Below, one piece after another: positions 6,338 through 37,254 of a DNA stretch of 37,730 nt. The stretch comes from a bacterium (lineage in GTDB: Bacteria; Patescibacteriota; Minisyncoccia; Portnoybacterales; GWB1-42-6). A model generated the notes under the pieces. That model was not told where the DNA came from. It saw only the letters and a program-made list of their open reading frames with translations, and searched no databases. Numbering within the stretch: the first letter of the stretch is position 1; each line of letters begins with the position of its first letter. Location of the stretch: the NCBI GenBank assembly GCA_043800535.1, contig JAZDMV010000009.1, positions 1-37,730 of the forward strand, read 5' to 3'. The translations under genes and the position numbers were made by a program.

Positions 6338-9300
6338 TTAAATCTCTGCTTTTCCTAATTCTCCCGTCACTCTTTCTATCTCTTCGATCGTCGTCAATCC
6401 GTCCAGCGCTTTTAACAGTCCGTCCTGGCGCAGGGTTAACATGCCGGCCGCCTGGGCGGCTTTTTTAATTTCCAGGGTTTGGGCGCCTTTGGCAATGATC
6501 GTCTGTAAATTCTCGTCTTTCAATAAAATTTCATAAAGACCCATCTGGCCCCAGTAGCCGAAGTTCTTGCATTTTTTGCAGCCCTTTGGTTTGTATAAAG
6601 TGATGCTGGAAAGATTCGGCGTTTTGATGATTTTTGGCAGATTAGCCAGATTGGTTTTTATTGCTGTTGCAATTTTGGCGTCCGGCTTATATGTTTTTTT
6701 GCAGTCAGGGCATAATTTTCGCACGAGCCGTTGTGCCATAATCGCGTTGATGGCAGATGAAATATCGCCGGCAGAAATGCCAAGATTTATTAGCCGTTGC
6801 ACCGTGCTGGAAGCGTCATTTGTGTGGAGCGTGGAAATAACTAAGTGGCCGGTGAGCGAGGCCTGAATGGCGATTTTAGCTGTTTCTTCATCTCGAATTT
6901 CGCCAAGCATAATTATGTTGGGGTTCTGGCGCAGAAATGATTTTAGCGCCTTGCCAAAAGTATAGCCAGATGCTTCATCGATCTGCGTCTGGATGATGCC
7001 CGAAAGCCGGTATTCAATCGGGTCTTCAATCGTCATAATCTTGACGCCAGGCGCGTTGAGTTTTTGCAAAATGCCATAAAGCGTTGTCGTTTTGCCGGAA
7101 CCCGTTGGACCGGTGGTTAAAATAACGCCGGTTGGTTTACGGATCTCTTTTTCAAGCAGGGGATAGATTTCTTCTCTTATGCCCATAGCGCGCAAATCCA
7201 GACCCCCTTCTTTTGAAACAACGTCCTGGGACAAACCCAGAATTCTGATAACCGCTGTTTCGCCGTAACCGCCGGCAATGATCGAAAGGCGCACGTCAAG
7301 GTTGGCGCCGCCAAAGTCAATATTGAACCGGCCTTCCTGCACGCCTTTAAACTCCTTGGTTTTTAAGCCGGCCAGAATTTTTATTTCTCCAAGAAGCGGC
7401 AGGTGATAAATTTTTGGCAGTTTGGCAATATCCTGCAAAATTCCGTCAATCCGGCAGCGGACCATAAGGTCGCCGGCGGTTGGCTCAATATGTATATCGG
7501 TTGAGCGGAGAAGCAGGGAGAAAGCAAGAATGTCGTTAAAAATATCTTCCTGGTTGGCCGCAGACAAAACTTTTTCAACCTTTTCTTTTTCCGTGGCGAT
7601 CTTTTCGTATTTTTCTTTTTTCTCTTTGGTAATTGTGATGCCGCGCGTGAGCGACTGGGAAGAGGCGCGTTCATAAAGTTCTTCAAGGTATCCCGGTTTG
7701 CCGACTGCCCGTTCAACTTCTTCCAGATCGGTTATTCCTTCAAGGCATCTTAAGACACCGTCCTGATATAGAGTGAGCATGCCCGCGTCAACCGCGGAAA
7801 CCAGAATTTCAAAGGCCGAGGCGCGGCTTAAGATCAATTTTCTGATTTCTTCGTTCATGGTCAAGACCTCAAAAAGCGGCTGGCGGCCTTTGTAGCGCAG
7901 GCCAAAGCAGGCCGGACATCCTTTGCTCCGCCAAAGCTTACGGTCTTTTGGTATTTGGACTTTGGCACGGGGCGAAATAATAGAAAGAACCTTTTCGATT
8001 TTGAGCAGGGTTTCTTTGTCGGGTTCGTATTGTTCCTTGCATTCGGGACAGATCTTTCTGACCAAGCGTTGGGCAATAATGGCGTTTAGGGCGTCAGGCA
8101 AAGTTTTTATATCAACGCCCATGTCAATGATGCGAGAAATGGTGCTTGTAGCGTCGTTTGTGTGAAGTGTGGAAAAAACAAGATGGCCAGTCATCGCCGC
8201 CTGCAGGGTGATCTTGGCCGTTTCTTCATCTCTTATTTCGCCGACCATAACGACATTGGGATTCTGGCGCAGGATGGCGCGCAAGGCCTGGGCAAAAGAA
8301 TAATTTTTGCTGATCTGCGTCTGGACTATTCCGGCCAGGCGATACTCAACCGGGTCTTCGATCGTAATAATTTTGATCTTGGGATTATTAAGGTGGTTTA
8401 AAAACGCATAAAGCGTTGTCGTTTTGCCCGAGCCCGTCGGGCCGGTATTTAAAATAATGCCGTTTGGCTTCTGGACCTCCCGGACAAGAGAATTAAAAAC
8501 ATTTTCCCGCATGCCGATCTTTTCAATCTGCAATTTTTCAATGCCAGCGCCAAGAATTCTGATAACAACCGTTTCGGCGTTGCCTTCGGGCAGAATGGAA
8601 ACGCGGGTTTCCATTTCCTGTGTAATTTTTTTCTGGTCGCCTTCTTGTTGGGCTATTTGAATGGTGAAACGGCCGTCCTGGGCAACATCTTTGATGTTGA
8701 TCATCAGATCAGAAAGAAGTTTTATGCGGGTAAGCAGTGAGCTATAAACTTTTAAAGAAAAGCTTGCCACATCCTGCAGGACGCCGTCAATCCGGTAGCG
8801 CAGGCGGATTTCTTTGCCCGGCTCGATATGAATATCGCCAGCCCCAGTTTTTAGGGAGCCGGCGATAATAGTTTCCAAAATTTCAGTGGCTGAAAGCTTG
8901 ACGATGTGGTCTTTGAGTTCTGAAATATTTTTTACGCGCTGGTTAAATTCGTCAAGATATTGCTGGTCAATTCTGACGATGCCGACAAGCGGCACGTCTG
9001 AAACCTTGACGCGGTAGAATTTGAATGCCCGTTCCAGGCTCGAGAGGGAAATGACAAGTTGATTGATTTTGACACCCATTTTTTCGACCAGGGTTTTTAT
9101 GGCCGCCTGGGTGTCCGGGTCTTGCGGGTCAACGACACCGACAGTCACGCTGTCGGTTTGTTTTTTGAGAACAACGAGTTTGCCGGCCTTGGCATCTTTT
9201 TCTGACAAAGTGTAGAGAACCTCCCCGTCAATCGGAAAAATGCTCAAGTCCATGTAGGGGAGCGAGTATTTTTTGGCATGGCGTTCCGCTTCAGCCTCTT

Positions 9301-9361
9301 CCTGGCTGCGTTTCATTTCGCCCAATTTTTCGCTGATGCGGGTTATTTTTGAAATTGCCAT
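6338..9361 (-). CDS. GspE/PilB-family secretion ATPase with two complete ATPase modules
   Basis: Each motif occurs twice: DIHIEP, R.RIDG.LQD, GPTGSGKTTTLY, TIEDP.EY, GEIRDEET, TGHLV.STLHTND, AQRLVRK.CP.C...GC..C. Confidence 0.93.
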   Translation of the reverse strand: MAISKITRISEKLGEMKRSQEEAEAERHAKKYSLPYMDLSIFPIDGEVLYTLSEKDAKAGKLVVLKKQTDSVTVGVVDPQDPDTQAAIKTLVEKMGVKINQLVISLSSLERAFKFYRVKVSDVPLVGIVRIDQQYLDEFNQRVKNISELKDHIVKLSATEILETIIAGSLKTGAGDIHIEPGKEIRLRYRIDGVLQDVASFSLKVYSSLLTRIKLLSDLMINIKDVAQDGRFTIQIAQQEGDQKKITQEMETRVSILPEGNAETVVIRILGAGIEKLQIEKIGMRENVFNSLVREVQKPNGIILNTGPTGSGKTTTLYAFLNHLNNPKIKIITIEDPVEYRLAGIVQTQISKNYSFAQALRAILRQNPNVVMVGEIRDEETAKITLQAAMTGHLVFSTLHTNDATSTISRIIDMGVDIKTLPDALNAIIAQRLVRKICPECKEQYEPDKETLLKIEKVLSIISPRAKVQIPKDRKLWRSKGCPACFGLRYKGRQPLFEVLTMNEEIRKLILSRASAFEILVSAVDAGMLTLYQDGVLRCLEGITDLEEVERAVGKPGYLEELYERASSQSLTRGITITKEKKEKYEKIATEKEKVEKVLSAANQEDIFNDILAFSLLLRSTDIHIEPTAGDLMVRCRIDGILQDIAKLPKIYHLPLLGEIKILAGLKTKEFKGVQEGRFNIDFGGANLDVRLSIIAGGYGETAVIRILGLSQDVVSKEGGLDLRAMGIREEIYPLLEKEIRKPTGVILTTGPTGSGKTTTLYGILQKLNAPGVKIMTIEDPIEYRLSGIIQTQIDEASGYTFGKALKSFLRQNPNIIMLGEIRDEETAKIAIQASLTGHLVISTLHTNDASSTVQRLINLGISAGDISSAINAIMAQRLVRKLCPDCKKTYKPDAKIATAIKTNLANLPKIIKTPNLSSITLYKPKGCKKCKNFGYWGQMGLYEILLKDENLQTIIAKGAQTLEIKKAAQAAGMLTLRQDGLLKALDGLTTIEEIERVTGELGKAEI

Positions 9362-26066: not shown

Positions 26067-26113
26067 ATTTGAATTTCCCGGGGGCAAGGGGTATACTGGA
26101 AATATGATTTATA

Positions 26114-26201
26114 CCCCTCTTTTGTAAAGAGGGGCTAGGGGAGATTTATTTTTTACATAATGTCCGTAAATCCCTCTTACCCTCCCTTTACGAAAGGGAG
26201 G
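26114..26201. repeat. C/G-run double-hairpin element upstream of ruvA
   Basis: cccctcttttgtaaagaggggctaggggagattt ... aaatccctcttaccctccctttacgaaagggagg. Confidence 0.85.
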
Positions 26202-26211
26202 AACAAGAAAA

Positions 26212-26790: not shown

Positions 26791-26799
26791 CACAACTTG

Positions 26800-26863
26800 T
26801 GTCATCCCGGGCTTGACCCGGGATCCAGATCTAACCTGGATTCCGGCTTCCGCCGGAATGACA
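26800..26863. repeat. Minimal TGTCAT-family element
   Basis: tgtcatcccgggcttgacccgggatccag...ctggattccggcttccgccggaatgaca. Confidence 0.9.
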
Positions 26864-26873
26864 ATATGGAAGA

Positions 26874-27956
26874 ATGGTAGAAATTGGAGCTGATAATATT
26901 AGAAAACGCGATTGGAACCGTTTTGTGATGGAGCAAAACGGTAGTTTTTTACAATCTTATGAATGGGGCGAATTTCAGAGATTGCTTGGCCGCGAGGTAT
27001 TTTTTTTGCGGGATATAAACTGGCAAGCGCTAATCGTTAAGTACCAGATGCCTCTTGGCAAAAATTATCTTTATTGCCCGCACGGCCCGGTCTTGGCGGC
27101 TAACATAAAAATATGCGGGTTTTTGGAACAGTTGCAGGATTTGGCAAAAAAAGAGAAGTCGGTTTTTTTGAGAGTTGAGCCCCTCACAAATCCCTCCGGG
27201 ATTGTTCGGGGTAAACTAGCGAATTGCACGAAGGAAGACTTATCGGAATTATGTTTTGTAAAGTCCAAAGACATTCAACCACATAAAACCCTGGTTTTGG
27301 ATCTGAATTTGAGTGAAGGAGAATTGTTGGCAGAGATGCACGAGAAAACGAGGTATAACATAGGGTTGGCGCGGCGGCGTGGAGTTACGGTAAAAACTGC
27401 CAAATACAACGGGGAGGATTTTAATAATTTTTGGGATTTATTGAATCAGACGGCGCGTAGGCAGAAAATCAGGTTGTTTGGAGAAGAATATTATAGAAAG
27501 CAGTTGGAAATAGGAAATAACGCCCCCCACCCCCCTCTTAATTTAAGAGGGGGAGGGAATACGAGTGCAATTCCCTCTCTTATTTTAAGAGAGGGTGAGG
27601 GTGAGTTAAATTTTCAGGACTTGCTTTTTATTGCCGAATTTCAAGATAAACCAATCGCTGCAAATATGGTAAATATATTTGGTGGCCGCGCGACTTATCT
27701 GCACGGCGGGTTGGATAATGAATACAGAAGCTTAATGTCCCCGCACTTGTTGCAGTGGGAGCAGATAAAATACACCAAAAATATTGGCTGCAAAATCTAT
27801 GATTTCTGGGGCTGTGACGAACAGAAATGGCCGGGAGTCAGCCGTTTCAAGCGCGGCTTTGGGGGTCGTGAAATTGAATGGTGCGGCACGCATGATTATA
27901 TCTTTGATAAATTCTGGTATAAGATTTATAAAGTGGCAAGGATTATTTTAAGATAA
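26874..27956 (+). CDS. FemABX-family peptidoglycan aminoacyltransferase with two repeat-derived insertions
   Basis: FLQSYEWGEF, YCPHGP, FLRVEP, KTRYNI.LA.R.GV, LLQWE.I, YDFWG, GV.RFKRGFGG. Confidence 0.93.
   Translation: MVEIGADNIRKRDWNRFVMEQNGSFLQSYEWGEFQRLLGREVFFLRDINWQALIVKYQMPLGKNYLYCPHGPVLAANIKICGFLEQLQDLAKKEKSVFLRVEPLTNPSGIVRGKLANCTKEDLSELCFVKSKDIQPHKTLVLDLNLSEGELLAEMHEKTRYNIGLARRRGVTVKTAKYNGEDFNNFWDLLNQTARRQKIRLFGEEYYRKQLEIGNNAPHPPLNLRGGGNTSAIPSLILREGEGELNFQDLLFIAEFQDKPIAANMVNIFGGRATYLHGGLDNEYRSLMSPHLLQWEQIKYTKNIGCKIYDFWGCDEQKWPGVSRFKRGFGGREIEWCGTHDYIFDKFWYKIYKVARIILR
27518..27608. repeat. C/G-run double-hairpin element in frame inside femABX
   Basis: ccccctcttaatttaagaggggg ... ccctctcttattttaagagaggg; encodes NAPHPPLNLRGGGNTSAIPSLILREGEGEL. 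Confidence 0.88.
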
Positions 27957-27964
27957 AAATTTTC

Positions 27965-28052
27965 TGTCATTCCGAGCGTAGCGAGGAATCTCCCGCGGAT
28001 GCGGGGCCGACATAAAGTCGGAGATTCTTCGGCCTTTGGCCTCAGAATGACA
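27965..28052. repeat. TGTCAT-family element
   Basis: tgtcattccgagcgtagcgaggaatctcc...ggagattcttcggcctttggcctcagaatgaca. Confidence 0.88.
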
Positions 28053-28055
28053 ATT

Positions 28056-28592
28056 ATGGGTATGCCTGAAAAATTTGAGAAAAATGCAGAGCAGGAGGGC
28101 ATGTCAGAAGCAAAAAGGGAATTATTGCGGTTTGAAATGGACGGGAAATATGTTTTTCACGGTTCACCTTTGAATCTTAATAAATTGGAACCAAGGCAGG
28201 CATTCGATTTTGACAAAGAAAAAGGAGGATTGGCGGAAGATGGAAAACCGGCAGTCTGCGCTACTGATAGGGCGGAAGTCGCTATTGCCAAAGCGATTTT
28301 TTGGCAACGTCCGGAGTTCGCTGGCATTTTTCATTGGTTATGGGGGTACGAAGTTAACGAGAAAGGAGAAAAATCTATTGTTTTTGAAGCTTCACGAAAT
28401 ACGTTAGAACAGCTGAAGGCAATCAAAGATAAGCTTAGAGGGTATATTCATGTTTTTTCTAAAAGCGGATTTGAACAATACAGGAATGATGAGTGGAGAA
28501 CCTATAAAGAAGTTAATCCAGAAAAAGTCATTGAGGTTAGATTTGAGGACTTGCCCGACATAAAAATTATTGAAGATGAAAAACCTGATTAA
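28056..28592 (+). CDS. Hypothetical protein (FHGS..LEPRQ motif); start after the repeat
   Basis: Coding-like ORF between femABX and murE; the track's first 19 aa are repeat-derived. Confidence 0.75.
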   Translation: MGMPEKFEKNAEQEGMSEAKRELLRFEMDGKYVFHGSPLNLNKLEPRQAFDFDKEKGGLAEDGKPAVCATDRAEVAIAKAIFWQRPEFAGIFHWLWGYEVNEKGEKSIVFEASRNTLEQLKAIKDKLRGYIHVFSKSGFEQYRNDEWRTYKEVNPEKVIEVRFEDLPDIKIIEDEKPD

Positions 28593-29988
28593 AAAATTCA
28601 TCCCAGATTTTATTTTATACTGGTACCATTGGAAAATGGCGGTTTTGGGTGCGTTGATTTATGGTTTTCCGAGCAAAAAATTGATTGTCATTGGTGTGAC
28701 AGGGACAAAAGGCAAAACAACTACTTGCAATTTAATAGCCCAGATTTTAAACGGGGCAGGGCTAAAAACCGGCATGGCGACAACCGTCAATTTCAGAATC
28801 GGCGAAAAGGAATGGGTAAACGAATCAAAGATGACCATGCTGGGCCGGTTTGGATTGCAGAAACTTTTGCGGCAGATGGTTCGCGAAGGATGTAAGTATG
28901 CGGTGATTGAAACTTCTTCGGAAGGCATTTTGCAGCATAGGCATCGGTTTATTGATTATTCTGTCGCGGTTTTTACGAATTTGTCGCCGGAGCATATTGA
29001 GCGGCACGGCAGTTTTGAAAAATATCGGGAGGCAAAATTAAAATTGTTTGAGGCGGTGGCAAGGAAAAAGAACGGAACGGGGGTATACAATTTGGACGAT
29101 GAGAATGCGGGGCATTTTTTGGAAATTCCTGTTGCGAAAAGATATGGGTATTCTTTAAATCTCCCCCAGCCCCTCCTAAAGGAGGGGGGCTCCCTCCCTT
29201 TAGGGAGGGTTAGGGAGGATTTTAGACAATTTCAAATTTCAAATATTAAATTATCCCCCAGCAAAACAGAATTTGATTTTGATAATGCGCACTTTGAAAT
29301 GCCGTTGATTGGCGAGTTTAATGTTTTTAACGTGGCGGCCGCGATTTGTGTCGGAGTTTCGCAGGGAATAGACCCCAACAAAATCAAAGAGATTTTAAAA
29401 AACGTTAAGTCCACGCCAGGCCGCCTTGAAGTTGTTGATTGTGGTCAGCCGTTTACTGTCATAGTTGATTACGCGCACGAGCCGGCTTCGCTGGAAGCGG
29501 TTTATAAGGCAATCAAAGTTTTTAATCCGCGAAAGATAATCGCGGTTTTGGGGGCGCAGGGAGGTGGAAGAGACAAGCGCAAACGTCCGGAATTGGGGAG
29601 GATAGCGGGGGAGTATGCGGATACGATAATAGTCACGAATGAGGATCCATACGATGAAAGTCCGGAGCAGATAATTGAGGATGTGGCGGCAGGGGTCGCT
29701 CCTCCGTGTCATCCCGGGCTTGACCCGGGATCCAGATGTCGTCCCTGCGAAAGCAGGGATCAAAACCTGGATTCCCGCTTCCGCGGGGATGACAGAAAGT
29801 GTGAGATTTTTAAGATTGTTGACAGAAAAGAAGCGATAAAAAAGGCGTTAAGTTTGGCTGAGACGGGGGATGTGGTGATTTTGACAGGCAAAGGAGGAGA
29901 GGTTTGGATGTGTGTTGAAAATGGCAAGAAAATCCCCTGGAATGAGCGCAAAATTGTTGAGGAAGAGCTAGCAAAACTTCGTCCTTGA
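28570..29988 (+). CDS. murE: UDP-N-acetylmuramyl-tripeptide synthetase (MurE-type ligase) with two repeat insertions
   Basis: GVTGTKGKTTT, ETSSEG, FTNLSPEH, GEFNVFN, PGRLE, VDYAHEP, RDKRKRP, TNEDP, GKG. Confidence 0.93.
   Translation: MKMKNLIKKFIPDFILYWYHWKMAVLGALIYGFPSKKLIVIGVTGTKGKTTTCNLIAQILNGAGLKTGMATTVNFRIGEKEWVNESKMTMLGRFGLQKLLRQMVREGCKYAVIETSSEGILQHRHRFIDYSVAVFTNLSPEHIERHGSFEKYREAKLKLFEAVARKKNGTGVYNLDDENAGHFLEIPVAKRYGYSLNLPQPLLKEGGSLPLGRVREDFRQFQISNIKLSPSKTEFDFDNAHFEMPLIGEFNVFNVAAAICVGVSQGIDPNKIKEILKNVKSTPGRLEVVDCGQPFTVIVDYAHEPASLEAVYKAIKVFNPRKIIAVLGAQGGGRDKRKRPELGRIAGEYADTIIVTNEDPYDESPEQIIEDVAAGVAPPCHPGLDPGSRCRPCESRDQNLDSRFRGDDRKCEIFKIVDRKEAIKKALSLAETGDVVILTGKGGEVWMCVENGKKIPWNERKIVEEELAKLRP
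29157..29222. repeat. C/G-run element in frame inside murE
   Basis: aaatctcccccagcccctcctaaaggagggg...cctccctttagggagggttagggaggattt; first 19 bp identical to the polA copy. Confidence 0.88.
29707..29794. repeat. TGTCAT-family element in frame inside murE
   Basis: First ~30 bp identical to intergenic 26800; encodes CHPGLDPGSRCRPCESRDQNLDSRFRGDD. Confidence 0.92.
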
Positions 29989-30013
29989 CTTTGGTCTTTG
30001 GATATGTTATCAT
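29985..30013 (+). promoter_or_regulatory. Candidate sigma70 promoter for the Zn-finger genes
   Basis: TTGACT-17 bp-TATCAT with extended TG. Confidence 0.6.
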
Positions 30014-30061
30014 TTTGACAATCAAATAAGCCAAAAATTTCCTCATAAAAGGAGGGGGATT

Positions 30062-30307
30062 ATGAATAATGTGGAGCCGAGGGTGGTTAAAGGAAATCTG
30101 GTTGACATAGCGAAGTTCAGGGAGTGGAAAGAAAGGCGTCAGAAGAAGGTAATCCAGATAAGGAAAGGAAAGGCGGTTGACACTTTTGCGTCTCCTGTCA
30201 TTGACCGCCGCAGGAAGACCTGCTGGAATTGCAGAACTGTTCTGGAAGAGAACGAGAAGATCTGTCCGAATTGCAATCGTTTTGTGGCAGGGGACTTCAG
30301 CCCTTAA
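30062..30307 (+). CDS. Small zinc-ribbon protein
   Basis: CWNC-x10-CPNC; AAGGAGG SD. Confidence 0.78.
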   Translation: MNNVEPRVVKGNLVDIAKFREWKERRQKKVIQIRKGKAVDTFASPVIDRRRKTCWNCRTVLEENEKICPNCNRFVAGDFSP

Positions 30308-30364
30308 TAGTTTTTTCAAAATTCAGATTTTATATGATTTTTAAACACGAAAGGAGAGTGGCAA

Positions 30365-30577
30365 ATGAGCGTCACGATGGACAAGGGCAAAGAGCTTCTG
30401 GTTTGTGTCCCCTGCGGGGCGGCAATTGTTATCGAGTCTGCCGCGAATAAGGCGCCAAAGTGGGAAAGCAATCTTGCTTCTCATGAGGAACTGGTTGAGG
30501 TCAATAACCAGGATGACTTCAGTGCGTTCACGCTGACGCACAAGAGCCATAACGTCATAACCGCCCGACTGGGGTAA
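30365..30577 (+). CDS. Small putative C2H2-type zinc-binding protein
   Basis: CVPC...HKSH; GAAAGGAG SD; terminator follows. Confidence 0.72.
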   Translation: MSVTMDKGKELLVCVPCGAAIVIESAANKAPKWESNLASHEELVEVNNQDDFSAFTLTHKSHNVITARLG

Positions 30578-30587
30578 AAACAGCATG

Positions 30588-30625
30588 AAGGTCAGAAACC
30601 AAAATTCGGTTTCTGACCTTTTTTT
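30588..30625 (+). terminator. Terminator of the Zn-finger pair
   Basis: aaggtcagaaacc-loop-ggtttctgacctt-ttttt. Confidence 0.85.
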
Positions 30626-30627
30626 CA

Positions 30628-30664
30628 TAAAAAAGCCCCTGCTCGTTTTTAGGCGAACAGGGGT
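30628..30664 (-). terminator. Terminator of the nuclease-primase gene
   Basis: Minus strand cccctgttcg-loop-cgagcagggg-cttttt. Confidence 0.78.
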
Positions 30665-30704
30665 AATTTGTTTCAGAAGGTACAATTGTCAGATAAGTGC
30701 GGCT

Positions 30705-33599
30705 TTATCTGCGGTTCTGCTTTTTCCACCCGATCCATGTTTCATTGAAATCCTTTGCCATATCTGGGTGTTCAGCCATGAACTGGGCAGTGAAATCTCT
30801 GACCGCAAGGCCGCGGCGAGTCAGATTTTGAGTCAGGCGTTTTGTTGCTTCCTGGCCTGGACGCATTTCTGTCCCGGGTTTTGGCGGGTCATTGTTCAGA
30901 GCAATGGCCACGCTTTTTTGGGCGTTGGCAATAGTTTCAATGAGCAGAGAATTATCTATGCCGATTATTGCCATTGATGAAGGATAGCCCATCTGAATTA
31001 AAGTCAATGCTTCCATTACTGCTTCGGCCACTATTACTTCTTCGTGCTCGGAATAGAGAACGTCAGCATTGAAAGCGCCGTGAGGGACATTTGTTCTTTG
31101 GGTCGAGAGTTTGTAGTGACGGAATTCTTTGTCACAGGCATAAGTGGCTCGGCCATAGAAACTGGTTGTCATATTTGTGAGCACCAAAGGAAAAGTCACG
31201 CGGTCTCGCAATGTCGAATAAGGATAGCCAAATTGTTTCTGCATTTTTTTTCTCTCTTCCCGCGAAAGCAGCATGACATCAATTTCCCGGCGTATCTGAT
31301 TTTCGTCAAGCCCGCGTCTTTTAAGAAGCGGCCCAAGACCTCTGCCAGACGTGATGTTTTCAGAAACACCCACAAAGCCATAGAAGATCAGATCGTCCAG
31401 AGAATAGCCGCTGTCAAGCATTTCGTTGATGAAGCGGTCGTTGCCAAATCCGGCACCATATTTGAATGCCAGCTCTGGGTCCAGATATCTTTCTTTGCTG
31501 ATATACTGCTCTGCTTTGCTGCTTTTAAATTGGGCACGCAGAATTTCCTGGGCCGATGACATTATCCGGCTGTGTTCGGCAGGGATGACAATTTCACTTG
31601 TGGCTTGGCCGCTCCATTTTTCCGCTTTTTCAAGATCAAACGAAGCAGGAATTTGCAGTTCTCCCAGCAGATCTTTTGGGATAGACCTTGAATCTATCTG
31701 GCCGTGTATCCCGCAAGCAAAGCACTTGAAACCGCCTTTATAGAACGAGTTGGCGGCTGGATCAAAACGAGGCATCCAGATGTAAAGAGTAGGATGGATA
31801 TCGGCGTGGTATTTGGGATGTTCTGGAGGGACTAAACTATAGACGCAGCGGATGAAACCGCCTTTGGCCCTGATGCCTTTGGTTGGCATTTGGCCCTGTT
31901 CAATCGCGGCAAAAAGCCTATCAAGATGCATGATATATTTTTCTTCACCGTCTCGCTTAGATACGATTTCTTCAACGATTTTGAGTGGGTCAAGAAACTT
32001 TCTCTCTTTTTCAAGGGGCGTGAATTCTTTGTCATACAGCGCCAATGTTTTTGCCGGGACCAAGGAGCCGGCTTGGGTTATTTGATCTTGGATCATTTCG
32101 TCTATGGTTTTTTCGCGCTCGGATTTGTGTCCAGAAATGATCTTTTTGGCCGACACTTCAGGGAACAACGATGTCTGGCCATTTTTGTCATGTCCGTTCT
32201 TGCCGTTTTTGCCATTTTGGCTGGTTTGAACGGGCTGGTTCTTTGACACTTTTTTGTTCTCCAGCCGGCGGATAATGTGTCTGACAATACCGTTGGTCAG
32301 TTTTCTCATGGTGGCGCGTCTTTCCGCCTCGTCGAGCTTATTAAGGACCTGTGAAGCATAGGCGCGTTGTTTGTCGGACTGGCCAAGCGCTACCTGGTGT
32401 AAAAACGGGGAAGAAGTCGGCAGCAGATATGTCAGTTCGCCGCAGTTGAATCCGGACCAAAAATCCGGGCATCTGTTGGGCTCGGCCAACTTATTGCCAA
32501 AAGAGCAGAAGACAAGGTATCTTGCCAGTTGTTCTATATGCTTTTTTTGCGGCAGATCCTGAGCCAGAAGGAGATTATTTTTCCCGCCGCAATCGCCGAC
32601 AAAGAATTTCCAATCGCTGACGTTTAGCCCAAAATCTTTGCTGCCCAACACAAGCTCTATGTTCTTTAAAAGCTGAGGAAGAGAACCGGATCGGTATTTG
32701 GCCAGTTCGCGAAGAGATCTCTTCTGTTTTTTTGATGGTGGTCTGCCGTTTATGTCGGTCACTTCAACAGCATCAAGCCGTCCGCCGTGGATATCATCGC
32801 CATAGCGCAAAACAGGAATTTCGGGAAAAATAATCCTTGGGGCGGTTTTGCGAAAATGCGTGACAGCGGCCGCCCAGGTTAAGATGCTTAGGCTGATAAA
32901 TTCCCGGTCTGCTGGGTTGTTATATCTGAGCAGTCTTTGCGTGTGATTTCCAAGAAGCGGGGATAGAAGCAGAAACAGGTCGTCTATTATCCTCTTGCAT
33001 CCCCAGTACCAATCGGGCCATAGGGAATTATTTTTTTCAATGATCTCCAGAGCCCTTAGCCATTTTTTTTCAATCCTTCTGCCGTCGATAAAATCGCTTG
33101 TGATTGCTTCCTGTCCGCTTAAAAACGCAGTTTTGAAAGGACCATTGAAAAGAGATAATTGTTTTTCAGTGAAGTCGAAACTTAACTGCATCAGTTGGCC
33201 GGGTGTTGTTTTGGGCAGATGTTTCAGGGGTTTGAATATTTCTCCCATAACCAGGCGTGGCATGATCGAATGACCGATCTGGCCGCAAATAAAATTTACG
33301 TTCTTTTCCGTTTTTTGTTTCAGCGCTTTTCTGAGCTCGGCCATTTTGCCTTTTGCTACCTTGTCTGACTTAAAATCAGCGCAGGCAAGCTTCAGGTCCG
33401 CCAGGTCTTGCTCTTCGCTTAACTCCTGAAGAAAATTCAATGCTTTTTGGGGATCGGCGTATTCTTTGTCCGCTATGCCCAAAGCTTCAATAATTAGTTT
33501 CAAAAACCCGTCTTTCTGCATTTCCAAAACCCAATCCTGAAATTCAGGAGAAGGGTCTTGGGGTGCGGCAGGATCATCTATCAGAATCCCGTTTTTCAT
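30705..33599 (-). CDS. PD-(D/E)xK nuclease / beta-clamp-motif / DnaG-like Zn-finger-TOPRIM fusion protein
   Basis: E260, GRLD276, D329-W-K331, Q357xxxY361; QLSFDF, QLSLF, QTSLF; C585..H598..C626xxC629; RDRVTFPL..FYGRA; VIVAEAVME, ALNND, KDFNE; AAGGAGG SD. Confidence 0.8.
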   Translation of the reverse strand: MKNGILIDDPAAPQDPSPEFQDWVLEMQKDGFLKLIIEALGIADKEYADPQKALNFLQELSEEQDLADLKLACADFKSDKVAKGKMAELRKALKQKTEKNVNFICGQIGHSIMPRLVMGEIFKPLKHLPKTTPGQLMQLSFDFTEKQLSLFNGPFKTAFLSGQEAITSDFIDGRRIEKKWLRALEIIEKNNSLWPDWYWGCKRIIDDLFLLLSPLLGNHTQRLLRYNNPADREFISLSILTWAAAVTHFRKTAPRIIFPEIPVLRYGDDIHGGRLDAVEVTDINGRPPSKKQKRSLRELAKYRSGSLPQLLKNIELVLGSKDFGLNVSDWKFFVGDCGGKNNLLLAQDLPQKKHIEQLARYLVFCSFGNKLAEPNRCPDFWSGFNCGELTYLLPTSSPFLHQVALGQSDKQRAYASQVLNKLDEAERRATMRKLTNGIVRHIIRRLENKKVSKNQPVQTSQNGKNGKNGHDKNGQTSLFPEVSAKKIISGHKSEREKTIDEMIQDQITQAGSLVPAKTLALYDKEFTPLEKERKFLDPLKIVEEIVSKRDGEEKYIMHLDRLFAAIEQGQMPTKGIRAKGGFIRCVYSLVPPEHPKYHADIHPTLYIWMPRFDPAANSFYKGGFKCFACGIHGQIDSRSIPKDLLGELQIPASFDLEKAEKWSGQATSEIVIPAEHSRIMSSAQEILRAQFKSSKAEQYISKERYLDPELAFKYGAGFGNDRFINEMLDSGYSLDDLIFYGFVGVSENITSGRGLGPLLKRRGLDENQIRREIDVMLLSREERKKMQKQFGYPYSTLRDRVTFPLVLTNMTTSFYGRATYACDKEFRHYKLSTQRTNVPHGAFNADVLYSEHEEVIVAEAVMEALTLIQMGYPSSMAIIGIDNSLLIETIANAQKSVAIALNNDPPKPGTEMRPGQEATKRLTQNLTRRGLAVRDFTAQFMAEHPDMAKDFNETWIGWKKQNRR

Positions 33600-33614
33600 A
33601 TTCCCTCCTCCTTT

Positions 33615-33654
33615 GCCCTGCCATAGCCCCGCACTTTGCGGGACGACGGCGGGC
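33615..33654. repeat. gcccgcc-type palindrome directly upstream of the nuclease-primase SD
   Basis: gccctgccatagccccgcactttgcgggacgacggcgggc; resembles 37260-37319. Confidence 0.6.
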
Positions 33655-33773
33655 TTTCTTTGGATTCGTTAAGTTTCTTTGAAGCCGATTTTTTGTGTTT
33701 TAAAAGGACAAGCCGTTTTGCCGTCCTCCTGTCTATATAATAGATTGGTCAGTAAATTTGTGCCAATAAGGAT

Positions 33774-33782
33774 TGTGGATAA
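33774..33782 (-). promoter_or_regulatory. Perfect DnaA box upstream of the nuclease-primase gene
   Basis: TTATCCACA on the minus strand, just upstream of TTGGCA-18-TATTAT. Confidence 0.5.
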
Positions 33783-33802
33783 CAAGCACAAAACGCGGGG
33801 AT

Positions 33803-33834
33803 AAAAAATCCCCTGACCCGGTTAGGTCAGGGGA
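33803..33834 (-). terminator. Terminator after the Ku-like gene
   Basis: Minus strand tcccctgacc-taaccg-ggtcagggga-tttttt. Confidence 0.82.
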
Positions 33835-33848
33835 GGTAGATCCGGTTT

Positions 33849-34661
33849 CTATCTTTTCAAGGAACGGGCGACAGCCGCGTTGATGATGGCTTTTATCTTC
33901 GCGCGGCGGGGACTAACGCATCGCTCGGGATCAAGGGGCTTGGCATTTTTCATTGTATCGGCCATGGGTTGCGCCAGACGCTTGAAATCCGGCACGGCGG
34001 CTATAGGGGTAAAATCAGGAAATTCGGCCGGGTCGCGGAGACGATCTGTGTCATTTAATATATCCACGACTAGACACAGCCGTTTTTGCCCGAAGATAAC
34101 AGCGGGAATCTCAAGAGGCCTTATCACCGCGACATTGGGAACCCGTTTTATGACAATGAGCGGGATAAAACCTAGAGAATTGCTGTCGCGGAGCAGGTGA
34201 AAGATGTTAAAGTATGAGTCAACCGAGGCGGGTTTGGGATAGACATGGAGGCGCCGGCTGAAACCGATGGTTTCCAGGGTCGGGTCATTATCAGGGATAA
34301 ATTGGGAAAATACGCGTTTGGTCGGCTCAAACTTTAAGCTCGCAATTTCCGCATCTGTAATCTGCACGACCCCAGAAGCCATATCAATCCCGCAGCCGAT
34401 CTCGTCAGTTTTGAGCGGCCTTTGGCATTTCGGACAGAAGATCTGTTCGCGGACGCAGACCGCTTCTGTGTCTTTCTCTTCTTGGGCTTCCGCTCCCGCC
34501 TCTTTTGTCTTAGGCGGCGTCAGGACCGTGTGGCATCCAAAGTGTACTTCAACAATTGGCAAGGGTTTGACCCTGCCAATCGCCGGAGTGAGGCGGCAGT
34601 CAAGTTCAAATGGATCGACTGCTATCACTCCCGTCCATTCGGCTTTTATTTTTGTAGCCAT
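33849..34661 (-). CDS. Divergent Ku (DNA end-binding) homologue, 270 aa (start MATKIK)
   Basis: WTGVIAV, VREQIFCPKCQRPL..DEIGCG, VQITDAEIASL..EPTK, YP, AVIRP, LDPERCVSPRRAKIKAII line up with the prokaryotic Ku consensus (W.G.I, DEIVKGY, ITDEE, FDP..Y.D.Y..L..LI); AGAAAGGAGGT SD. Confidence 0.8.
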   Translation of the reverse strand: MATKIKAEWTGVIAVDPFELDCRLTPAIGRVKPLPIVEVHFGCHTVLTPPKTKEAGAEAQEEKDTEAVCVREQIFCPKCQRPLKTDEIGCGIDMASGVVQITDAEIASLKFEPTKRVFSQFIPDNDPTLETIGFSRRLHVYPKPASVDSYFNIFHLLRDSNSLGFIPLIVIKRVPNVAVIRPLEIPAVIFGQKRLCLVVDILNDTDRLRDPAEFPDFTPIAAVPDFKRLAQPMADTMKNAKPLDPERCVSPRRAKIKAIINAAVARSLKR

Positions 34662-34806
34662 GTTCTGTACCTCCTTTCTGCTATAACCGTTCGTTGTATT
34701 GTGAAAGGGCAAATGCTCAGTTCTGATAAAATACCACGAAGAAAGCTATTTGTAAAGGTAATTGAGAATTTCTTTTTGAGCGCCTAAAATGATATAATAA
34801 AATAGC

Positions 34807-34959
34807 ATGAAAGGATATTCGTCAGCGCGGGCAGGAAAGGGCAAGACGGCTTATCGGACGCCGAGCGGCTTTAAGTATCGGTATTTCCGTGAGGTCCAAA
34901 AAAGGAAAATTAACGAGACAAATAACCGCAAATACGCGGTTAAAGCAAAAGGAATATAA
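34807..34959 (+). CDS. 50-aa highly basic small protein (not in ORF track)
   Basis: MKGYSSARAGKGKTAYRTPSGFKYRYFREVQKRKINETNNRKYAVKAKGI*; TGaTATAAT 8 nt upstream; stop is 2 nt before the next ATG. Confidence 0.62.
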   Translation: MKGYSSARAGKGKTAYRTPSGFKYRYFREVQKRKINETNNRKYAVKAKGI

Positions 34960-34961
34960 AT

Positions 34962-36365
34962 ATGAGATTACATTTTTTAGGCGGGACAAGAATTGCTTCG
35001 GGCAACAGCTATCTGCTTGAAGTTAATGATAAAAAGATCCTGATTGATTGCGGGATGTATCAGGGCAACAAAAAACTGGAGAATAAAAATTTCGGCCCTT
35101 TTGATTTTGCGCCGCAGGAAATTGATTTTGTCATAGTGACACATTCTCACCTTGACCATATCGGCCGCCTGCCGATGCTCATAAAAGAAGGATTTCGAGG
35201 CAAAATTTTTGCTACGCCCCCGACCATTGAGTTTACACGAGTAATGCTGGAAGACACACGGCGGGTTTTGCAGGAAAAGGCGCAGAAGGCCGGCCGCCTG
35301 CCCCTTTTTGCCGAAAAAGAAATAGATGAAATGATGAATTTTTTTGAGGCCATTGAGTATCATGAAAAAAAAGAATTGGCTCCGGGAATATCATTTGAAT
35401 TTTTTGAGGCGGGCCATATTCTGGGCTCGGCATTTGTCAAGTTAGAAGTTAAAAGTTTACCCCGTGGGAGCGAAACGACTTTACGGGATGAAAAGTTAAA
35501 AGTTGGCCGGACGATTGTGTTTTCAGGGGATTTGGGCAATACGCCTGTGCCGATCTTGCGGCCGCTTGAAACAATCCAGGAAGCTGATTATGTTCTGGTG
35601 GAATCGGTCTACGGAGACCGCCTGCACGAAACAAACAAGGAAGCGAAGGAAACGGTGGAGGACGCGGTTGAGGATGCGATTTCCAAAAAAGGCGTGCTTA
35701 TGATACCCAGTTTTGCCATGGAGCGGGCCCAGCAGCTTTTGTATCATTTAAATGAATTGGTGGAAAACAAGCGCATTCCGGCCGTGCCGATATTTTTTGA
35801 CAGCCCCTTGGCAATTCGCATCACAAAGATCTATGAAAAGTTTCCGCAGTATTTTAATAAAGAAGCGCAGGGGTTGATAAAATCAGGCGATGATATTTTT
35901 AAGTTTCCTGGTTTAAGGATAACCTCTTCAGTTAAAGAATCAAAAGGAATAAATGATATCCCGGCGCCAAAAATTATTATTGCCGGCTCGGGAATGTCAC
36001 AGGGCGGCAGGATACTGCATCATGAGGCCCGATACCTGCCAGATGCAAAAAATACGCTTTTGATGGTCACTTATCAGGCGGCAGGCACGCTTGGCCGTCA
36101 AATTCTTGAGGGCGAAAATGAGGTTGAGATTTTAGACCAAAAAATTCCGGTTCGGGCAGCAATTAAGAGCATCAGCGGCTATTCTGCGCATGCGGACCAA
36201 AAAGGACTGGTTGAGTGGCTGGAAGCAATACGCAAGCCAATTAAAAAGATTTTTGTTGTGCAGGGCGAGGAAAAACCGGCGCTGGCGCTGGTGCAGATAA
36301 TTAAAGACCGGATGGGAATTGTGGCCGAAGCGCCGGAGATGGGGGATGTGGTGGAATTGGAATGA
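34962..36365 (+). CDS. MBL-fold beta-CASP ribonuclease-like hydrolase
   Basis: LIDCG, THSHLDHIG, AGHILGS, FSGDLG, ESVYG, GSGM..GGR, YSAHAD. Confidence 0.93.
   Translation: MRLHFLGGTRIASGNSYLLEVNDKKILIDCGMYQGNKKLENKNFGPFDFAPQEIDFVIVTHSHLDHIGRLPMLIKEGFRGKIFATPPTIEFTRVMLEDTRRVLQEKAQKAGRLPLFAEKEIDEMMNFFEAIEYHEKKELAPGISFEFFEAGHILGSAFVKLEVKSLPRGSETTLRDEKLKVGRTIVFSGDLGNTPVPILRPLETIQEADYVLVESVYGDRLHETNKEAKETVEDAVEDAISKKGVLMIPSFAMERAQQLLYHLNELVENKRIPAVPIFFDSPLAIRITKIYEKFPQYFNKEAQGLIKSGDDIFKFPGLRITSSVKESKGINDIPAPKIIIAGSGMSQGGRILHHEARYLPDAKNTLLMVTYQAAGTLGRQILEGENEVEILDQKIPVRAAIKSISGYSAHADQKGLVEWLEAIRKPIKKIFVVQGEEKPALALVQIIKDRMGIVAEAPEMGDVVELE
35439..35504. repeat. In-frame aaagtt repeats with an embedded palindrome in the beta-CASP gene
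   Basis: aagttagaagttaaaagttt-accccgt...acgggat-gaaaagttaaaagtt. Confidence 0.7.
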
Positions 36366-36645: not shown

Positions 36646-37254
36646 ATGAAGAAACTTGCTTCCAGTTATCTAAAATATAAAATTTGTGTCTCCGGCGCGG
36701 CCGAAACCGATTGTTGCGCGCCGGGCGCGCTTGAAAAAGCCAAAGAAGTGGGGCGGGAAATTGTCCGGCACAATGGCGTTTTGGTAACCGGCGCCACTAC
36801 CGGCATTCCTTATTGGGCGGCTATTGGCGCCAAAGAAGAAGGCGGAATTTCTATCGGTCTTTCGCCCGCTGCTTCGGAAATCGCCCATGTTAAAACATAC
36901 CATCTGCCGGTTGATTATTTTGACATGATTATTTATACAGGTTTTGAATATGCAGGCAGAAATCTTTTGCTGACCAGGTCTTCGGATGCCGTCATTGTTG
37001 TCTGCGGAAGGATGGGCACGCTTAACGAATTCACTATTGCCTTTGAAGACCAGAAACCCATCGGAATCCTGACAGAAACCGGCGGCATGTCAGATTTTAT
37101 AGATGATATAGTTGAAAAGGCCAATCGCGGGCCAGGAAAGATCATCTATGATTCTGACCCGAAAAGATTAGTAGAAAAGGTGATTGAGCTGGTTGAGAAA
37201 GAGAAAGTAGTAAGAATAGAGAAGAGGCCGAAGATAGATAAAAGCGAGTCATAA
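36646..37254 (+). CDS. LOG/SLOG family nucleotide-binding protein
   Basis: ICVSG, LVTGATTG, GA.EEGG.SIGLSP, TG...GRN.LL.RSSDAVI..G..GTLNE. Confidence 0.85.
   Translation: MKKLASSYLKYKICVSGAAETDCCAPGALEKAKEVGREIVRHNGVLVTGATTGIPYWAAIGAKEEGGISIGLSPAASEIAHVKTYHLPVDYFDMIIYTGFEYAGRNLLLTRSSDAVIVVCGRMGTLNEFTIAFEDQKPIGILTETGGMSDFIDDIVEKANRGPGKIIYDSDPKRLVEKVIELVEKEKVVRIEKRPKIDKSES

What the first reader, a model, noticed from the sequence alone, without database searches (positions are those of the whole stretch)
30705..33599. RecB/Cas4-type nuclease fused N-terminally to a DnaG-like core
Seen: GxxxH (G106-H110), E260, GRLD276, DWK331 and QxxxY361, which form the complete RecB-family motif series, with a ~45-aa insert between motifs II and III. 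A low-complexity linker follows, then a CHC2-like finger (C585, H598, C626, C629), DnaG RNA-polymerase-domain motifs and TOPRIM, with no helicase-binding domain. Known: DnaG-type primases are usually stand-alone or fused to helicases. Inference: a nuclease is steered to ssDNA or priming sites by a primase scaffold.
Basis: partly seen in the sequence, partly recalled or inferred. Interest (0 to 1): 0.82.

Follow-up and report, generated by a model that had tools for sequence, protein, structure and literature searches.

The report
Nuclease-primase fusion protein of Patescibacteria
A rare 964-residue protein of ultra-small (Patescibacteria) bacteria joins a RecB-like DNA-cutting domain to a DnaG-like primer-making enzyme that lacks the usual helicase dock, an apparently undescribed combination that most likely works on broken or gapped DNA.

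Summary
It belongs to an unannotated family: 187 cluster representatives at E<=1e-30, and all 21 genome loci are Patescibacteria. In 119 full-length members the RecB motif series, the CHC2 finger and the DnaG/Toprim acidic residues are 95-100% conserved, at a median 24-35% identity to the query. The N-terminal model (pLDDT 81.8) has a PD-(D/E)xK topology. Its best fold matches are RecB-type exonucleases, but weakly (E>=0.014). No sequence profile detects the nuclease. The C-terminal half matches DnaG structures and ends about 14 aa after Toprim, so it has no helicase-binding domain. The protein is an accessory paralogue: 21 of 23 bearer genomes also have canonical DnaG. It is rare, found in 2 of 401 phylum genomes and 3 of 59 in its order. 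Here it sits in a variable hot spot. A Ku or Mu-Gam end-binding gene lies directly upstream in 3 of 23 loci. I read it as a helicase-independent enzyme that cuts and then primes at DNA ends or gaps; this function is inferred. It is a new variant of known kinds.

The parts
30705..33599 (-). Whole gene, 964 aa (P0001): nuclease-primase fusion
   Evidence: Open frame. Full-length homologues at 31-48% identity. 187 cluster representatives at E<=1e-30.
32250..33599 (-). N-terminal domain, aa 1-450. It has a helical N-terminal part (aa 18-117) carrying motif I (G106..H110), a disordered loop (aa 125-168), then helices and the PD-(D/E)xK core.
   Evidence: AlphaFold model from a 20-sequence alignment: pLDDT 81.8, pTM 0.79. 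Foldseek top hits are MGME1 and EXO5 in PDB, and RecB/PD-(D/E)XK/Cas4-like exonucleases in BFVD.
33270..33284 (-). Motif I, GxxxH (G106-H110)
   Evidence: G106 and H110 are each 119/119.
32388..32915 (-). PD-(D/E)xK catalytic core, aa 229-404: helix 229-252, strand 257-262 (E260), strand 274-283 (GGRLD276), two-helix insert 290-318, strand 323-332 (D329-W-K331, then G335-D336), helix 352-372 (Q357..Y361), strands 386-392 and 399-404
   Evidence: Secondary structure of the model. Conservation counts.
32010..32249 (-). Low-complexity, variable-length linker, aa 451-530
   Evidence: pLDDT below 50 over aa 450-531. Length varies in the alignments.
31680..32009 (-). Zinc-binding domain, aa 531-640, with CHC2-like ligands C585, H598, C626, C629
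   Evidence: The family profile aligns to the zinc-binding domain of Aquifex aeolicus DnaG 2au3, E 5.9e-11. The three Cys are 119/119 and the His 111/119.
30708..31586 (-). DnaG-type RNA-polymerase domain, aa 672-964, including Toprim (aa 853-954, nt 30738-31043); it ends 12 aa after the last conserved Toprim motif
   Evidence: TIGR01391 matches aa 621-934 at 29 bits. Pfam Toprim_3 matches aa 855-954. Foldseek matches DnaG RNA-polymerase domains 5guj, 4edg, 2au3 and 1dd9 at E about 1e-6, prob 1.0.
33849..34712 (-). Upstream neighbour on the same strand: Ku-type DNA-end-binding protein, 287 aa. A possible functional partner, but not part of the fusion.
   Evidence: Pfam Ku 22.5 bits and TIGR02772 28 bits, both below cut-off. 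PDB Ku 9vnq at E 7.4e-5. ESM Atlas: 30/30 feature hits are Ku clusters, and TM is 0.76 to bacterial Ku models.
33737..33834 (-). Intergenic signals between Ku and the fusion gene: terminator-like hairpin 33834-33809 and promoter-like site 33766-33737
   Evidence: Consensus scan only.
30588..30663 (-). Two terminator-like hairpins just after the fusion gene's stop codon (30663-30636, 30620-30588)
   Evidence: Consensus scan only. They lie inside the 114-aa ORF 30341-30685, which makes that ORF doubtful.

Best explanation
The gene encodes an accessory two-enzyme protein found so far only in Patescibacteria. The N-terminal domain is a RecB/MGME1-like metal-dependent PD-(D/E)xK nuclease without an Fe-S cluster. 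After a flexible linker come a CHC2 zinc finger and a DnaG-type RNA-polymerase/Toprim core, with no DnaB-binding domain. So it cannot be loaded at a fork by the replicative helicase, and it is not the cell's replicative primase. Proposed mechanism (inferred): the nuclease cuts or resects a DNA end, flap or gap and exposes single-stranded DNA. The tethered zinc finger and primase then lay an RNA primer on that strand, so that PolA or Pol III can fill in or restart synthesis. That would make it a helicase-independent 'resect-and-prime' repair or restart enzyme. In a minority of lineages, including this window, it is encoded directly behind a Ku or Mu-Gam DNA-end-binding protein, which points to double-strand ends as the substrate. 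Shown here: the architecture, conservation of both active sites, accessory status, rarity, and the Ku/Gam adjacency. Inferred: both activities, their order, and the substrate. My confidence is about 0.85 in the architecture and accessory status and about 0.3 in the mechanism; the score given is for the whole statement.
For: Both catalytic sets are 95-100% conserved in 119 members at 24-35% median identity to the query. The N-terminal model has PD-(D/E)xK topology with D276 at the start of strand 2, D329-x-K331 in strand 3 and QxxxY in the next helix. The best PDB fold hits are MGME1 (prob 0.97) and EXO5. All 20 named rows among the top 30 BFVD hits are exonuclease, PD-(D/E)XK, RecB, Cas4-like or YqaJ names. 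The C-terminal half matches DnaG by profile (2au3, E 5.9e-11) and by fold (E about 1e-6). No helicase-binding tail exists in any of the 119 members. Canonical DnaG over the curated cut-off co-occurs in 21 of 23 bearer genomes, and in L006 and L007 it lies in the same locus. In the window's genome the canonical dnaG-rpoD locus is missing together with the essential rpoD, which indicates an assembly gap. A Ku/Gam-superfamily gene sits immediately upstream on the same strand in 3 of 23 genes with upstream context: Ku in the window and Mu Gam in L031 and L004 (E 1.6e-27 and 1.7e-26). The three fusion proteins are mutually divergent (19-29% N-terminal identity). The two Gam proteins do not hit each other at E 1e-3. 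Gam occurs in only 17 of 401 phylum genomes. No ATP-dependent ligase (PF01068) was found in G000, G037 or G444, so Ku/Gam there has no LigD partner.
Against: No activity has been measured. The nuclease assignment has no significant sequence-profile support: no PDDEXK family matched in any of the 20 members scanned, the PF12705 genome search does not ring this ORF, and hhalign against canonical PDDEXK_1 proteins gives probability 2-3%. Foldseek E-values are all 0.014 or weaker. Ku/Gam adjacency is absent in 20 of 23 genes, and other neighbourhoods are unrelated. A terminator-like hairpin and a promoter-like site separate Ku from the fusion gene, so co-transcription is not indicated. The window's own protein has Asn at Toprim position 902, which may weaken its primase activity. 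The rare, patchy distribution and hot-spot location fit a defence or mobile gene as well as a repair gene.
Confidence: 0.4

Rival explanations
1. It is a single-gene anti-phage or anti-plasmid defence effector. The zinc finger and primase module recognises or primes on invading or replicating foreign ssDNA, and the nuclease degrades it. Ku/Gam neighbours would protect the host's own DNA ends or come from the same defence island.
For: Distribution is rare and patchy: 2 of 401 phylum genomes, 3 of 59 in the order, 0 of 15 in the own family, and absent from both same-genus genomes. In the window it sits in a variable hot spot that is nearly empty in G006 and G010 and holds archease-RtcB in G001. 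Some loci have defence-like neighbours: a Pycsar-effector-like TM protein in L007 and patatin in L003. There is a weak PADLOC hit to an RT-associated DnaG-like protein (E 1.8e-4).
Against: No PADLOC family matches the whole protein. Most neighbours are housekeeping genes. In one clade the gene keeps stable synteny across 5 loci (L010, L013, L014, L016, L021). No sensor or ATPase module is present.
Confidence: 0.25
2. It is a replication or recombination protein inherited from a phage or other mobile element of Patescibacteria: a primase plus a recombination exonuclease, as phage replication modules encode separately. It would now be a domesticated remnant together with a phage-type Ku or Gam.
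For: The window's Ku resembles clusters that are 86-96% viral. Mu Gam is a phage family. BFVD fold hits for the nuclease are phage exonucleases. The gene sits in an insertion hot spot.
Against: No family member was found in IMG/VR viral contigs, in 50,697 phage records or in 72,556 plasmid records. No integrase, capsid or conjugation genes, no tRNA and no flanking repeats occur near the window's gene. Phages of these bacteria are poorly sampled, so the blanks are weak evidence.
Confidence: 0.15
3. It is this organism's replicative primase, having replaced canonical DnaG.
For: It is the only TIGR01391 match in the window's genome (20.4 bits).
Against: The genome also lacks rpoD, which lies next to dnaG in both same-genus genomes, and none of that contig's genes has a counterpart. 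This indicates an assembly gap in a 95.6%-complete genome. 21 of 23 bearer genomes keep canonical DnaG. There is no DnaB-binding domain.
Confidence: 0.03
4. The N-terminal domain is not a nuclease but a structural or DNA-binding module whose conserved residues serve another role. The protein would then be only a specialised primase.
For: There is no significant profile match to any PDDEXK family. Fold E-values are weak.
Against: The complete, ordered RecB motif series is near-invariant: H110, E260, D276, D/E329, K331, Q357, Y361. These residues fall on the expected secondary-structure elements. The named top fold hits are consistently RecB-type nucleases.
Confidence: 0.07

Closest known systems
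Bacterial DnaG primase (e.g. Aquifex aeolicus 2au3; TIGR01391)
   Same: CHC2-type zinc-binding domain followed by an RNA-polymerase domain with Toprim.
   Different: It scores 29 bits against a cut-off of 283.6. It has no C-terminal DnaB-binding domain (compare the canonical 610-aa DnaG of a same-genus genome, which has DnaB_bind). It carries a 450-aa N-terminal nuclease-like domain. The Cys-to-His spacing in the finger is longer. It is an accessory paralogue, not the housekeeping gene.
RecB-family PD-(D/E)xK nucleases (RecB nuclease domain, MGME1, EXO5, phage RecB/Cas4-like exonucleases; Pfam PDDEXK_1)
   Same: The ordered motifs GxxxH, E, GxhD, (D/E)xK and QxxxY lie on an alpha-beta-beta-beta-alpha-beta core. 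The best fold hits are MGME1, EXO5 and phage exonucleases. The role of the motif-I histidine as a metal ligand in RecB is recalled from the literature and was not checked here.
   Different: No Pfam or hhalign match. A two-helix insert of roughly 35-45 aa lies between motifs II and III. There is a large helical N-terminal extension with a disordered loop. No cysteines are conserved, so it has no Cas4/AddB/EXO5-type Fe-S cluster. A near-invariant G335-D336 follows the DxK motif.
Bacterial NHEJ enzyme LigD with Ku
   Same: A multidomain end-processing protein that combines a primase-type polymerase and a nuclease-type module and is encoded next to Ku. Here Ku or Gam lies directly upstream in 3 of 23 loci.
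   Different: LigD uses an archaeo-eukaryotic (AEP) primase-polymerase, a phosphoesterase domain and an ATP-dependent ligase; this is recalled knowledge. The protein here has a DnaG/Toprim primase, a PD-(D/E)xK nuclease and no ligase, and PF01068 is not found in the three genomes concerned. Most family members have no Ku or Gam.
Primase fusions to other replication modules (T7 gp4 and Twinkle primase-helicase; RSF1010 MobA relaxase-primase)
   Same: A primase is tethered to a second DNA enzyme. T7 gp4 and Twinkle appear as weaker fold hits (ranks 7-10).
   Different: The partner there is a helicase or a HUH relaxase (recalled), not a PD-(D/E)xK nuclease. No conjugation or helicase genes are linked here.
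Toprim nucleases of defence systems (OLD family, Gabija GajA, PARIS AriB)
   Same: A Toprim domain in a rare accessory protein.
   Different: Those proteins use Toprim itself as the nuclease and pair it with an ABC-type ATPase. I saw this only in the search listing and abstracts. The protein here has the full DnaG zinc finger and RNA-polymerase subdomain, a separate nuclease domain and no ATPase. PADLOC gives no such hit.

Membership tests
RecB-family PD-(D/E)xK nuclease | Restriction-endonuclease-like alpha-beta-beta-beta-alpha-beta core | tested here: met
   The model (pLDDT 81.8) has helix 229-252, strands 257-262, 274-283 and 323-332, helix 352-372, and strands 386-392 and 399-404. Top fold hits are MGME1 (prob 0.97), EXO5 and phage RecB/PD-(D/E)XK exonucleases, but at E 0.014-0.5 only. 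This rests on a predicted model, not an experimental structure.
RecB-family PD-(D/E)xK nuclease | Catalytic D ... (D/E)xK | tested here: met
   D276 119/119, D/E329 117/119, K331 118/119.
RecB-family PD-(D/E)xK nuclease | RecB-specific motif I (GxxxH) and QxxxY | tested here: met
   G106 and H110 119/119, Q357 115/119, Y361 117/119.
RecB-family PD-(D/E)xK nuclease | Significant match to a curated PDDEXK profile | tested here: not met
   No PDDEXK family matched in any of 20 N-terminal domains at E<=1. PF12705 finds two other ORFs in the genome but not this one. hhalign gives probability 2-3% and aligns only motif II.
Cas4 / AddB / EXO5 subgroup | Four conserved cysteines of an Fe-S cluster | tested here: not met
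   No column of the N-terminal domain has Cys in 30% or more of the 119 members.
RecB-family PD-(D/E)xK nuclease | Metal-dependent nuclease activity | not testable with these tools
   Needs a biochemical assay.
DnaG-type primase (TIGR01391) | CHC2 zinc finger | tested here: met
   C585, C626 and C629 119/119, H598 111/119. The family profile aligns to the 2au3 zinc-binding domain. Pfam PF01807 does not reach E 0.1 on the query itself, but it is precomputed for homologue P0005.
DnaG-type primase (TIGR01391) | RNA-polymerase domain fold with Toprim | tested here: met
   Foldseek matches 5guj, 4edg, 2au3 and 1dd9 at E 1.3e-6 to 2.8e-5, prob 1.0.
DnaG-type primase (TIGR01391) | Toprim acidic residues (E, DxD, D) | tested here: inconclusive
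   The family keeps them: E859 116/119, D902 100/119, D904 114/119, D950 115/119. The window's own protein has N902.
DnaG-type primase (TIGR01391) | Score above the curated cut-off | tested here: not met
   29 bits against 283.6.
DnaG-type primase (TIGR01391) | C-terminal DnaB-binding domain and a role as the sole replicative primase | tested here: not met
   The tail after Toprim has a median of 14 aa and a maximum of 49. Canonical DnaG is also present in 21 of 23 bearer genomes.
Bacterial Ku-LigD NHEJ system | Ku homologue | tested here: met
   The window ORF 33849-34712 is Ku-like. Ku was found in only 1 of the 23 bearer genomes.
Bacterial Ku-LigD NHEJ system | ATP-dependent ligase (LigD) | tested here: not met
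   PF01068 was not found in G000 (95.6% complete), G037 or G444.
Bacterial Ku-LigD NHEJ system | AEP-type primase-polymerase domain | not tested
   No AEP family search was run.
Known anti-phage defence systems (PADLOC-DB 2.0) | Match to a system protein model | tested here: not met
   The only hit is an RT-associated DnaG-like model, E 1.8e-4, 18 bits, over aa 800-956.

The most novel reading that the evidence does not exclude
This family is the end-processing enzyme of a LigD-independent, Ku- or Gam-linked double-strand-break pathway in ultra-small bacteria. The end-binding protein holds the break, the RecB-like domain trims or resects it, and a DnaG-type primase (not an AEP-type one) primes fill-in synthesis before sealing by the NAD-dependent ligase. 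That would be a bacterial analogue of primase-dependent fill-in at resected breaks, built from a replicative-type primase.
Probability: 0.15. Interest if true: 0.8.

Novelty: new variant of a known kind. Interest (0 to 1): 0.6.

Why it matters
DnaG-type primases are known as helicase-coupled replication enzymes. A conserved family that tethers one to a RecB-like nuclease and drops the helicase dock implies that RNA priming is used outside the replication fork, in repair, restart or conflict with foreign DNA. Patescibacteria have minimal genomes and sparse repair repertoires, so an accessory enzyme of this size is unlikely to be idle. The repeated pairing with two different Ku-superfamily end binders, in genomes where no LigD was found, gives a concrete and testable lead to a new kind of break processing. 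The N-terminal domain is also a PD-(D/E)xK lineage that current profile libraries miss. A family model built from the roughly 190 clusters would improve annotation.

Tried and rejected
1. Sole replicative primase. This was rejected. The window's genome lacks dnaG together with the adjacent essential rpoD, and the whole contig seen in same-genus genomes has no counterpart. 21 of 23 bearer genomes have canonical DnaG.

2. Conserved operon partner. All-against-all clustering of ORFs from 23 loci found no neighbour shared beyond close relatives. Pfam scans of the ORFs next to the gene in 15 loci and around the G470 and G155 copies found Gam only in L031. L004's Gam was found by the genome search and confirmed.

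3. Sequence-profile proof of the nuclease. The following all failed: PDB profile search, Pfam on 20 members, hhalign against 20 canonical PDDEXK_1 proteins in local, low-mact and global modes, and a word-index search for stand-alone or otherwise fused N-terminal domains.

4. VIA-align structural searches. They were not available.

5. Phage or plasmid origin. No member was found in IMG/VR, INPHARED or PLSDB.

6. Mobile-element borders. There is no tRNA and no convincing flanking repeats.

7. Expression. No RNA holder was listed for the locus.

8. The 289-aa ORF upstream of the G470 copy. It has no similarity to the window's Ku, no Pfam family and no usable Atlas hit.

9. Literature. Four full-text searches found no description of a DnaG-PD-(D/E)xK fusion. 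I read only passages of PMC7824862 and PMC7886860, and both describe separate genes, not a fusion. Subscription journals and supplementary files were not searched.


Full report
**What is there.** The minus-strand ORF 30705-33599 is open for 964 codons. Curated libraries see little. Pfam gives only sub-threshold Toprim_3 (23.3 bits) and Toprim_2 hits at aa 855-954. NCBIfam gives dnaG TIGR01391 at 29 bits over aa 621-934, against a cut-off of 283.6. PADLOC gives a weak RT-associated DnaG-like hit.

**A real, sizeable, unannotated family.**
- A word-index search found 5 full-length homologues at 31-48% identity. Where a source name was given, it was 'hypothetical protein'.
- An exhaustive profile search of 1.84 billion cluster representatives found 187 at E<=1e-30. 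All 150 listed are at E<=1.7e-53.
- A scan of one genome per GTDB species returned 21 loci, all titled Patescibacteria/CPR: Saccharibacteria, Paceibacterota, Parcubacteria, Nomurabacteria, Yanofskybacteria and Minisyncoccia.

**Conservation.** I aligned 119 full-length members. Their median identity to the query is 24% in the N-terminal half and 35% in the C-terminal half. Only 27 columns are 95% or more conserved. Most are the predicted functional residues of both halves; the remainder are M1 and a few conserved Gly, Pro, Tyr and Arg.
- Nuclease half: G106, H110, E260, D276, K331, G335, D336, Q357, Y361.
- Zinc finger: C585, C626, C629.
- Primase half: R817, E859, D904, D950 and several glycines.
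- Position 329 is D or E in 117/119, and H598 is H in 111/119.
- No cysteine is conserved in the N-terminal domain, so a Cas4-type Fe-S cluster is excluded.
- Position 902, the first Asp of the Toprim DxD, is D in 100/119 and N in 16, including the window's protein.

**Folds.**
- A full-length AlphaFold model built from 6 sequences was mediocre (pLDDT 62.3). Its C-terminal half still matched DnaG RNA-polymerase domains: 5guj, 4edg, 2au3, 5w35 and 1dd9 at E 1.3e-6 to 2.8e-5, prob 1.0.
- The family profile also aligns to Aquifex DnaG, including its zinc-binding domain (E 5.9e-11).
- For the N-terminal 455 aa I built a 20-sequence alignment from genome loci and obtained a good model (pLDDT 81.8, pTM 0.79). 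Its core runs helix 229-252, strand 257-262 (E260), strand 274-283 (D276), strand 323-332 (D329, K331), helix 352-372 (Q357, Y361), then strands 386-392 and 399-404. This is the PD-(D/E)xK arrangement.
- A two-helix insert (290-318) lies between strands 2 and 3.
- No Foldseek match reached E<=0.001. The best PDB rows are human MGME1 (E 0.03, prob 0.97) and EXO5. In BFVD, all 20 named rows among the top 30 are RecB-family, PD-(D/E)XK, Cas4-like, RecE-like or YqaJ-type exonucleases, at E 0.014-0.34.
- Sequence profiles do not confirm the assignment: no PDDEXK Pfam hit in 20 members, no PDB hit, and hhalign probability 2-3% with only motif II aligned.
- The nuclease call therefore rests on invariant motifs plus a consistent but statistically weak fold signal.

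**It is not the replicative primase.**
- In the window's own 0.79-Mb, 95.6%-complete genome, this ORF is the only dnaG-like match.
- 38 of the 41 genomes in that search (40 relatives plus G000) have a canonical DnaG of about 600 aa over the cut-off, including both same-genus genomes.
- In those two genomes, dnaG lies next to rpoD on short contigs.
- Apart from a short repeated 100-aa ORF, no ORF of 100 aa or more on those two contigs has a counterpart in the window's genome. rpoD is also missing, apart from a 36-bit region-4 match in another ORF.
- The simplest reading is an assembly gap.
- Across 23 genomes that carry the family, 21 also have canonical DnaG over the cut-off. In L006 and L007 it lies a few kb away in the same locus.
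- No member has room for a DnaB-binding domain: the tail is a median 14 aa and at most 49 aa.

**Distribution and context.**
- The N-terminal profile found the family in 2 of 401 Patescibacteria genomes sampled, counting the own genome.
- It found it in 3 of 59 genomes of the own order. It was in none of the 15 other genomes of the own family, which include both same-genus genomes.
- The window is otherwise core chromosome: RuvC, YebC, RuvB, PolA, HolA, UvrB, RuvA, FemAB and a Mur ligase.
- DNA comparison with five relatives shows that window positions about 29970-35029 have no counterpart. This block holds a 169-aa ORF, a 114-aa ORF, the fusion gene and Ku. The flanking Mur-ligase and beta-CASP genes are conserved.
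- In G006 and G010 the two flanks lie 0.9-1.4 kb apart. G001 carries archease, RtcB and three unknown ORFs there. This is a variable hot spot.
- No tRNA, no convincing flanking repeats and no mobile-element genes were seen. No member was found in viral contigs, phage records or plasmid records.

**The Ku/Gam link.**
- Neighbourhoods are otherwise unrelated.
- The gene directly upstream on the same strand is a Ku-type protein in the window. The evidence is Pfam and NCBIfam hits below cut-off, PDB Ku 9vnq at E 7.4e-5, 30 of 30 Atlas feature hits in Ku clusters, and TM 0.76 to bacterial Ku models.
- In L031 (G037) and L004 (G444) the upstream gene is a Mu Gam-like protein (E 1.6e-27 and 1.7e-26). 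Ku and Mu Gam are related end binders; this is recalled knowledge.
- That makes 3 of 23 genes for which upstream sequence is available.
- The three fusion proteins are mutually divergent. The two Gam proteins do not detect each other at E 1e-3.
- Gam is present in only 17 of 401 phylum genomes and in 3 of the 23 bearer genomes. Ku is in 1 of 23.
- No ATP-dependent ligase was found in the three genomes concerned.
- Against tight coupling, a terminator-like hairpin and a promoter-like site lie between Ku and the fusion gene, and two terminator-like hairpins follow the fusion gene (consensus scans only).

**Mechanism.**
- Shown: two domains whose catalytic residues are both under strong constraint, a flexible tether, no helicase dock, accessory status, and recurrent adjacency to DNA-end binders.
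- Inferred: the nuclease exposes or trims single-stranded DNA at an end, flap or gap, and the tethered zinc finger and primase prime on it for fill-in or restart.
- I put about 0.3 on this mechanism. Rivals are a defence effector (0.25), a domesticated phage or mobile-element replication and recombination protein (0.15), a non-catalytic N-terminal domain (0.07) and replacement of DnaG (0.03).
It stays possible for the 16 members with N902, including this one.

**Novelty.** The domains are known and the combination is not. Four full-text searches found no description of it, and the two papers whose passages I read describe separate genes. I class it as a new variant of known kinds, of moderate to high interest. 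The highest-value lead is a LigD-independent, Ku/Gam-linked break-processing role for a DnaG-type primase.

Noticed in passing
window 33849-34712 (-): A Ku-type end-binding protein (287 aa) whose nearest Atlas clusters are 86-96% viral. It is the only Ku match in the genome, and no ATP-dependent ligase (PF01068) was found there, so this is a Ku with no LigD found in this assembly.
   Followed up: partly
window ~29970-35029; L077 (G001), L078 (G006): A variable hot spot between a Mur-ligase-family gene and a beta-CASP nuclease gene. It is nearly empty in G006 and G010. G001 has archease, RtcB and three unknown ORFs there. The window has Ku, the nuclease-primase and two doubtful small ORFs.
   Followed up: partly
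window 26099-26209, 26793-26868, 27515-27614, 27965-28056, 29149-29224, 29707-29802: G+C-rich palindromic short repeats with 2-15 blastn-short matches each (the query's own copy included) in the own genome, and many short matches in relatives. Three lie inside open frames (FemAB, and twice in the Mur ligase) without breaking them. G001's Mur-ligase alignment skips the 29149-29224 element. They are reminiscent of in-frame palindromic elements such as the Rickettsia RPEs (recalled).
   Followed up: partly
G000 as a whole; L029 and L030: The dnaG-rpoD locus, syntenic in both same-genus genomes, is absent from the window's assembly. Neither canonical DnaG nor the housekeeping sigma factor is found. 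This is probably an unassembled region.
   Followed up: yes
window 30341-30685 (-) and 29810-30319 (-): Two small ORFs downstream of the fusion gene have no family and no homologue in the 21 related loci. The 114-aa ORF contains both terminator-like hairpins that follow the fusion gene. The 169-aa ORF overlaps the convergent Mur-ligase ORF by 179 nt. Both are doubtful genes.
   Followed up: partly
window 34962-36365 (+) and 36646-37254 (+): A beta-CASP metallo-beta-lactamase nuclease scores 402.6 bits on the NCBIfam 'type VII CRISPR Cas14' model (cut-off 800) and 304.2 bits on aCPSF1. It is followed by a SLOG cluster-4 protein. The pair is conserved in relatives and in L008, so it is probably housekeeping.
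   Followed up: no
L018 220-1746 (+); compare L005: A 508-aa ORF consisting only of the N-terminal nuclease-like domain, followed by the same downstream gene that follows the gene's 3' end in L005, where only the C-terminal 573 aa lie on the contig. This is a natural stand-alone or truncated form of the domain. Several roughly 500-aa representatives (P0145, P0151, P0152) may be the same.
   Followed up: no
L006 and L007: In two genomes the nuclease-primase gene lies about 4 kb from the canonical dnaG-rpoD pair.
   Followed up: no
window 6338-9361 (-): A 1007-aa type II/IV secretion ATPase (T2SSE) with two matched stretches, apparently a tandem-duplicated ATPase in one polypeptide.
   Followed up: no
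L010 7105-8028, and the homologous downstream ORFs in L013, L014, L016 and L021: An uncharacterised 280-307-aa protein with no Pfam family lies directly downstream of the fusion gene in 5 related loci. This is either lineage synteny or a lineage-specific partner.
   Followed up: no
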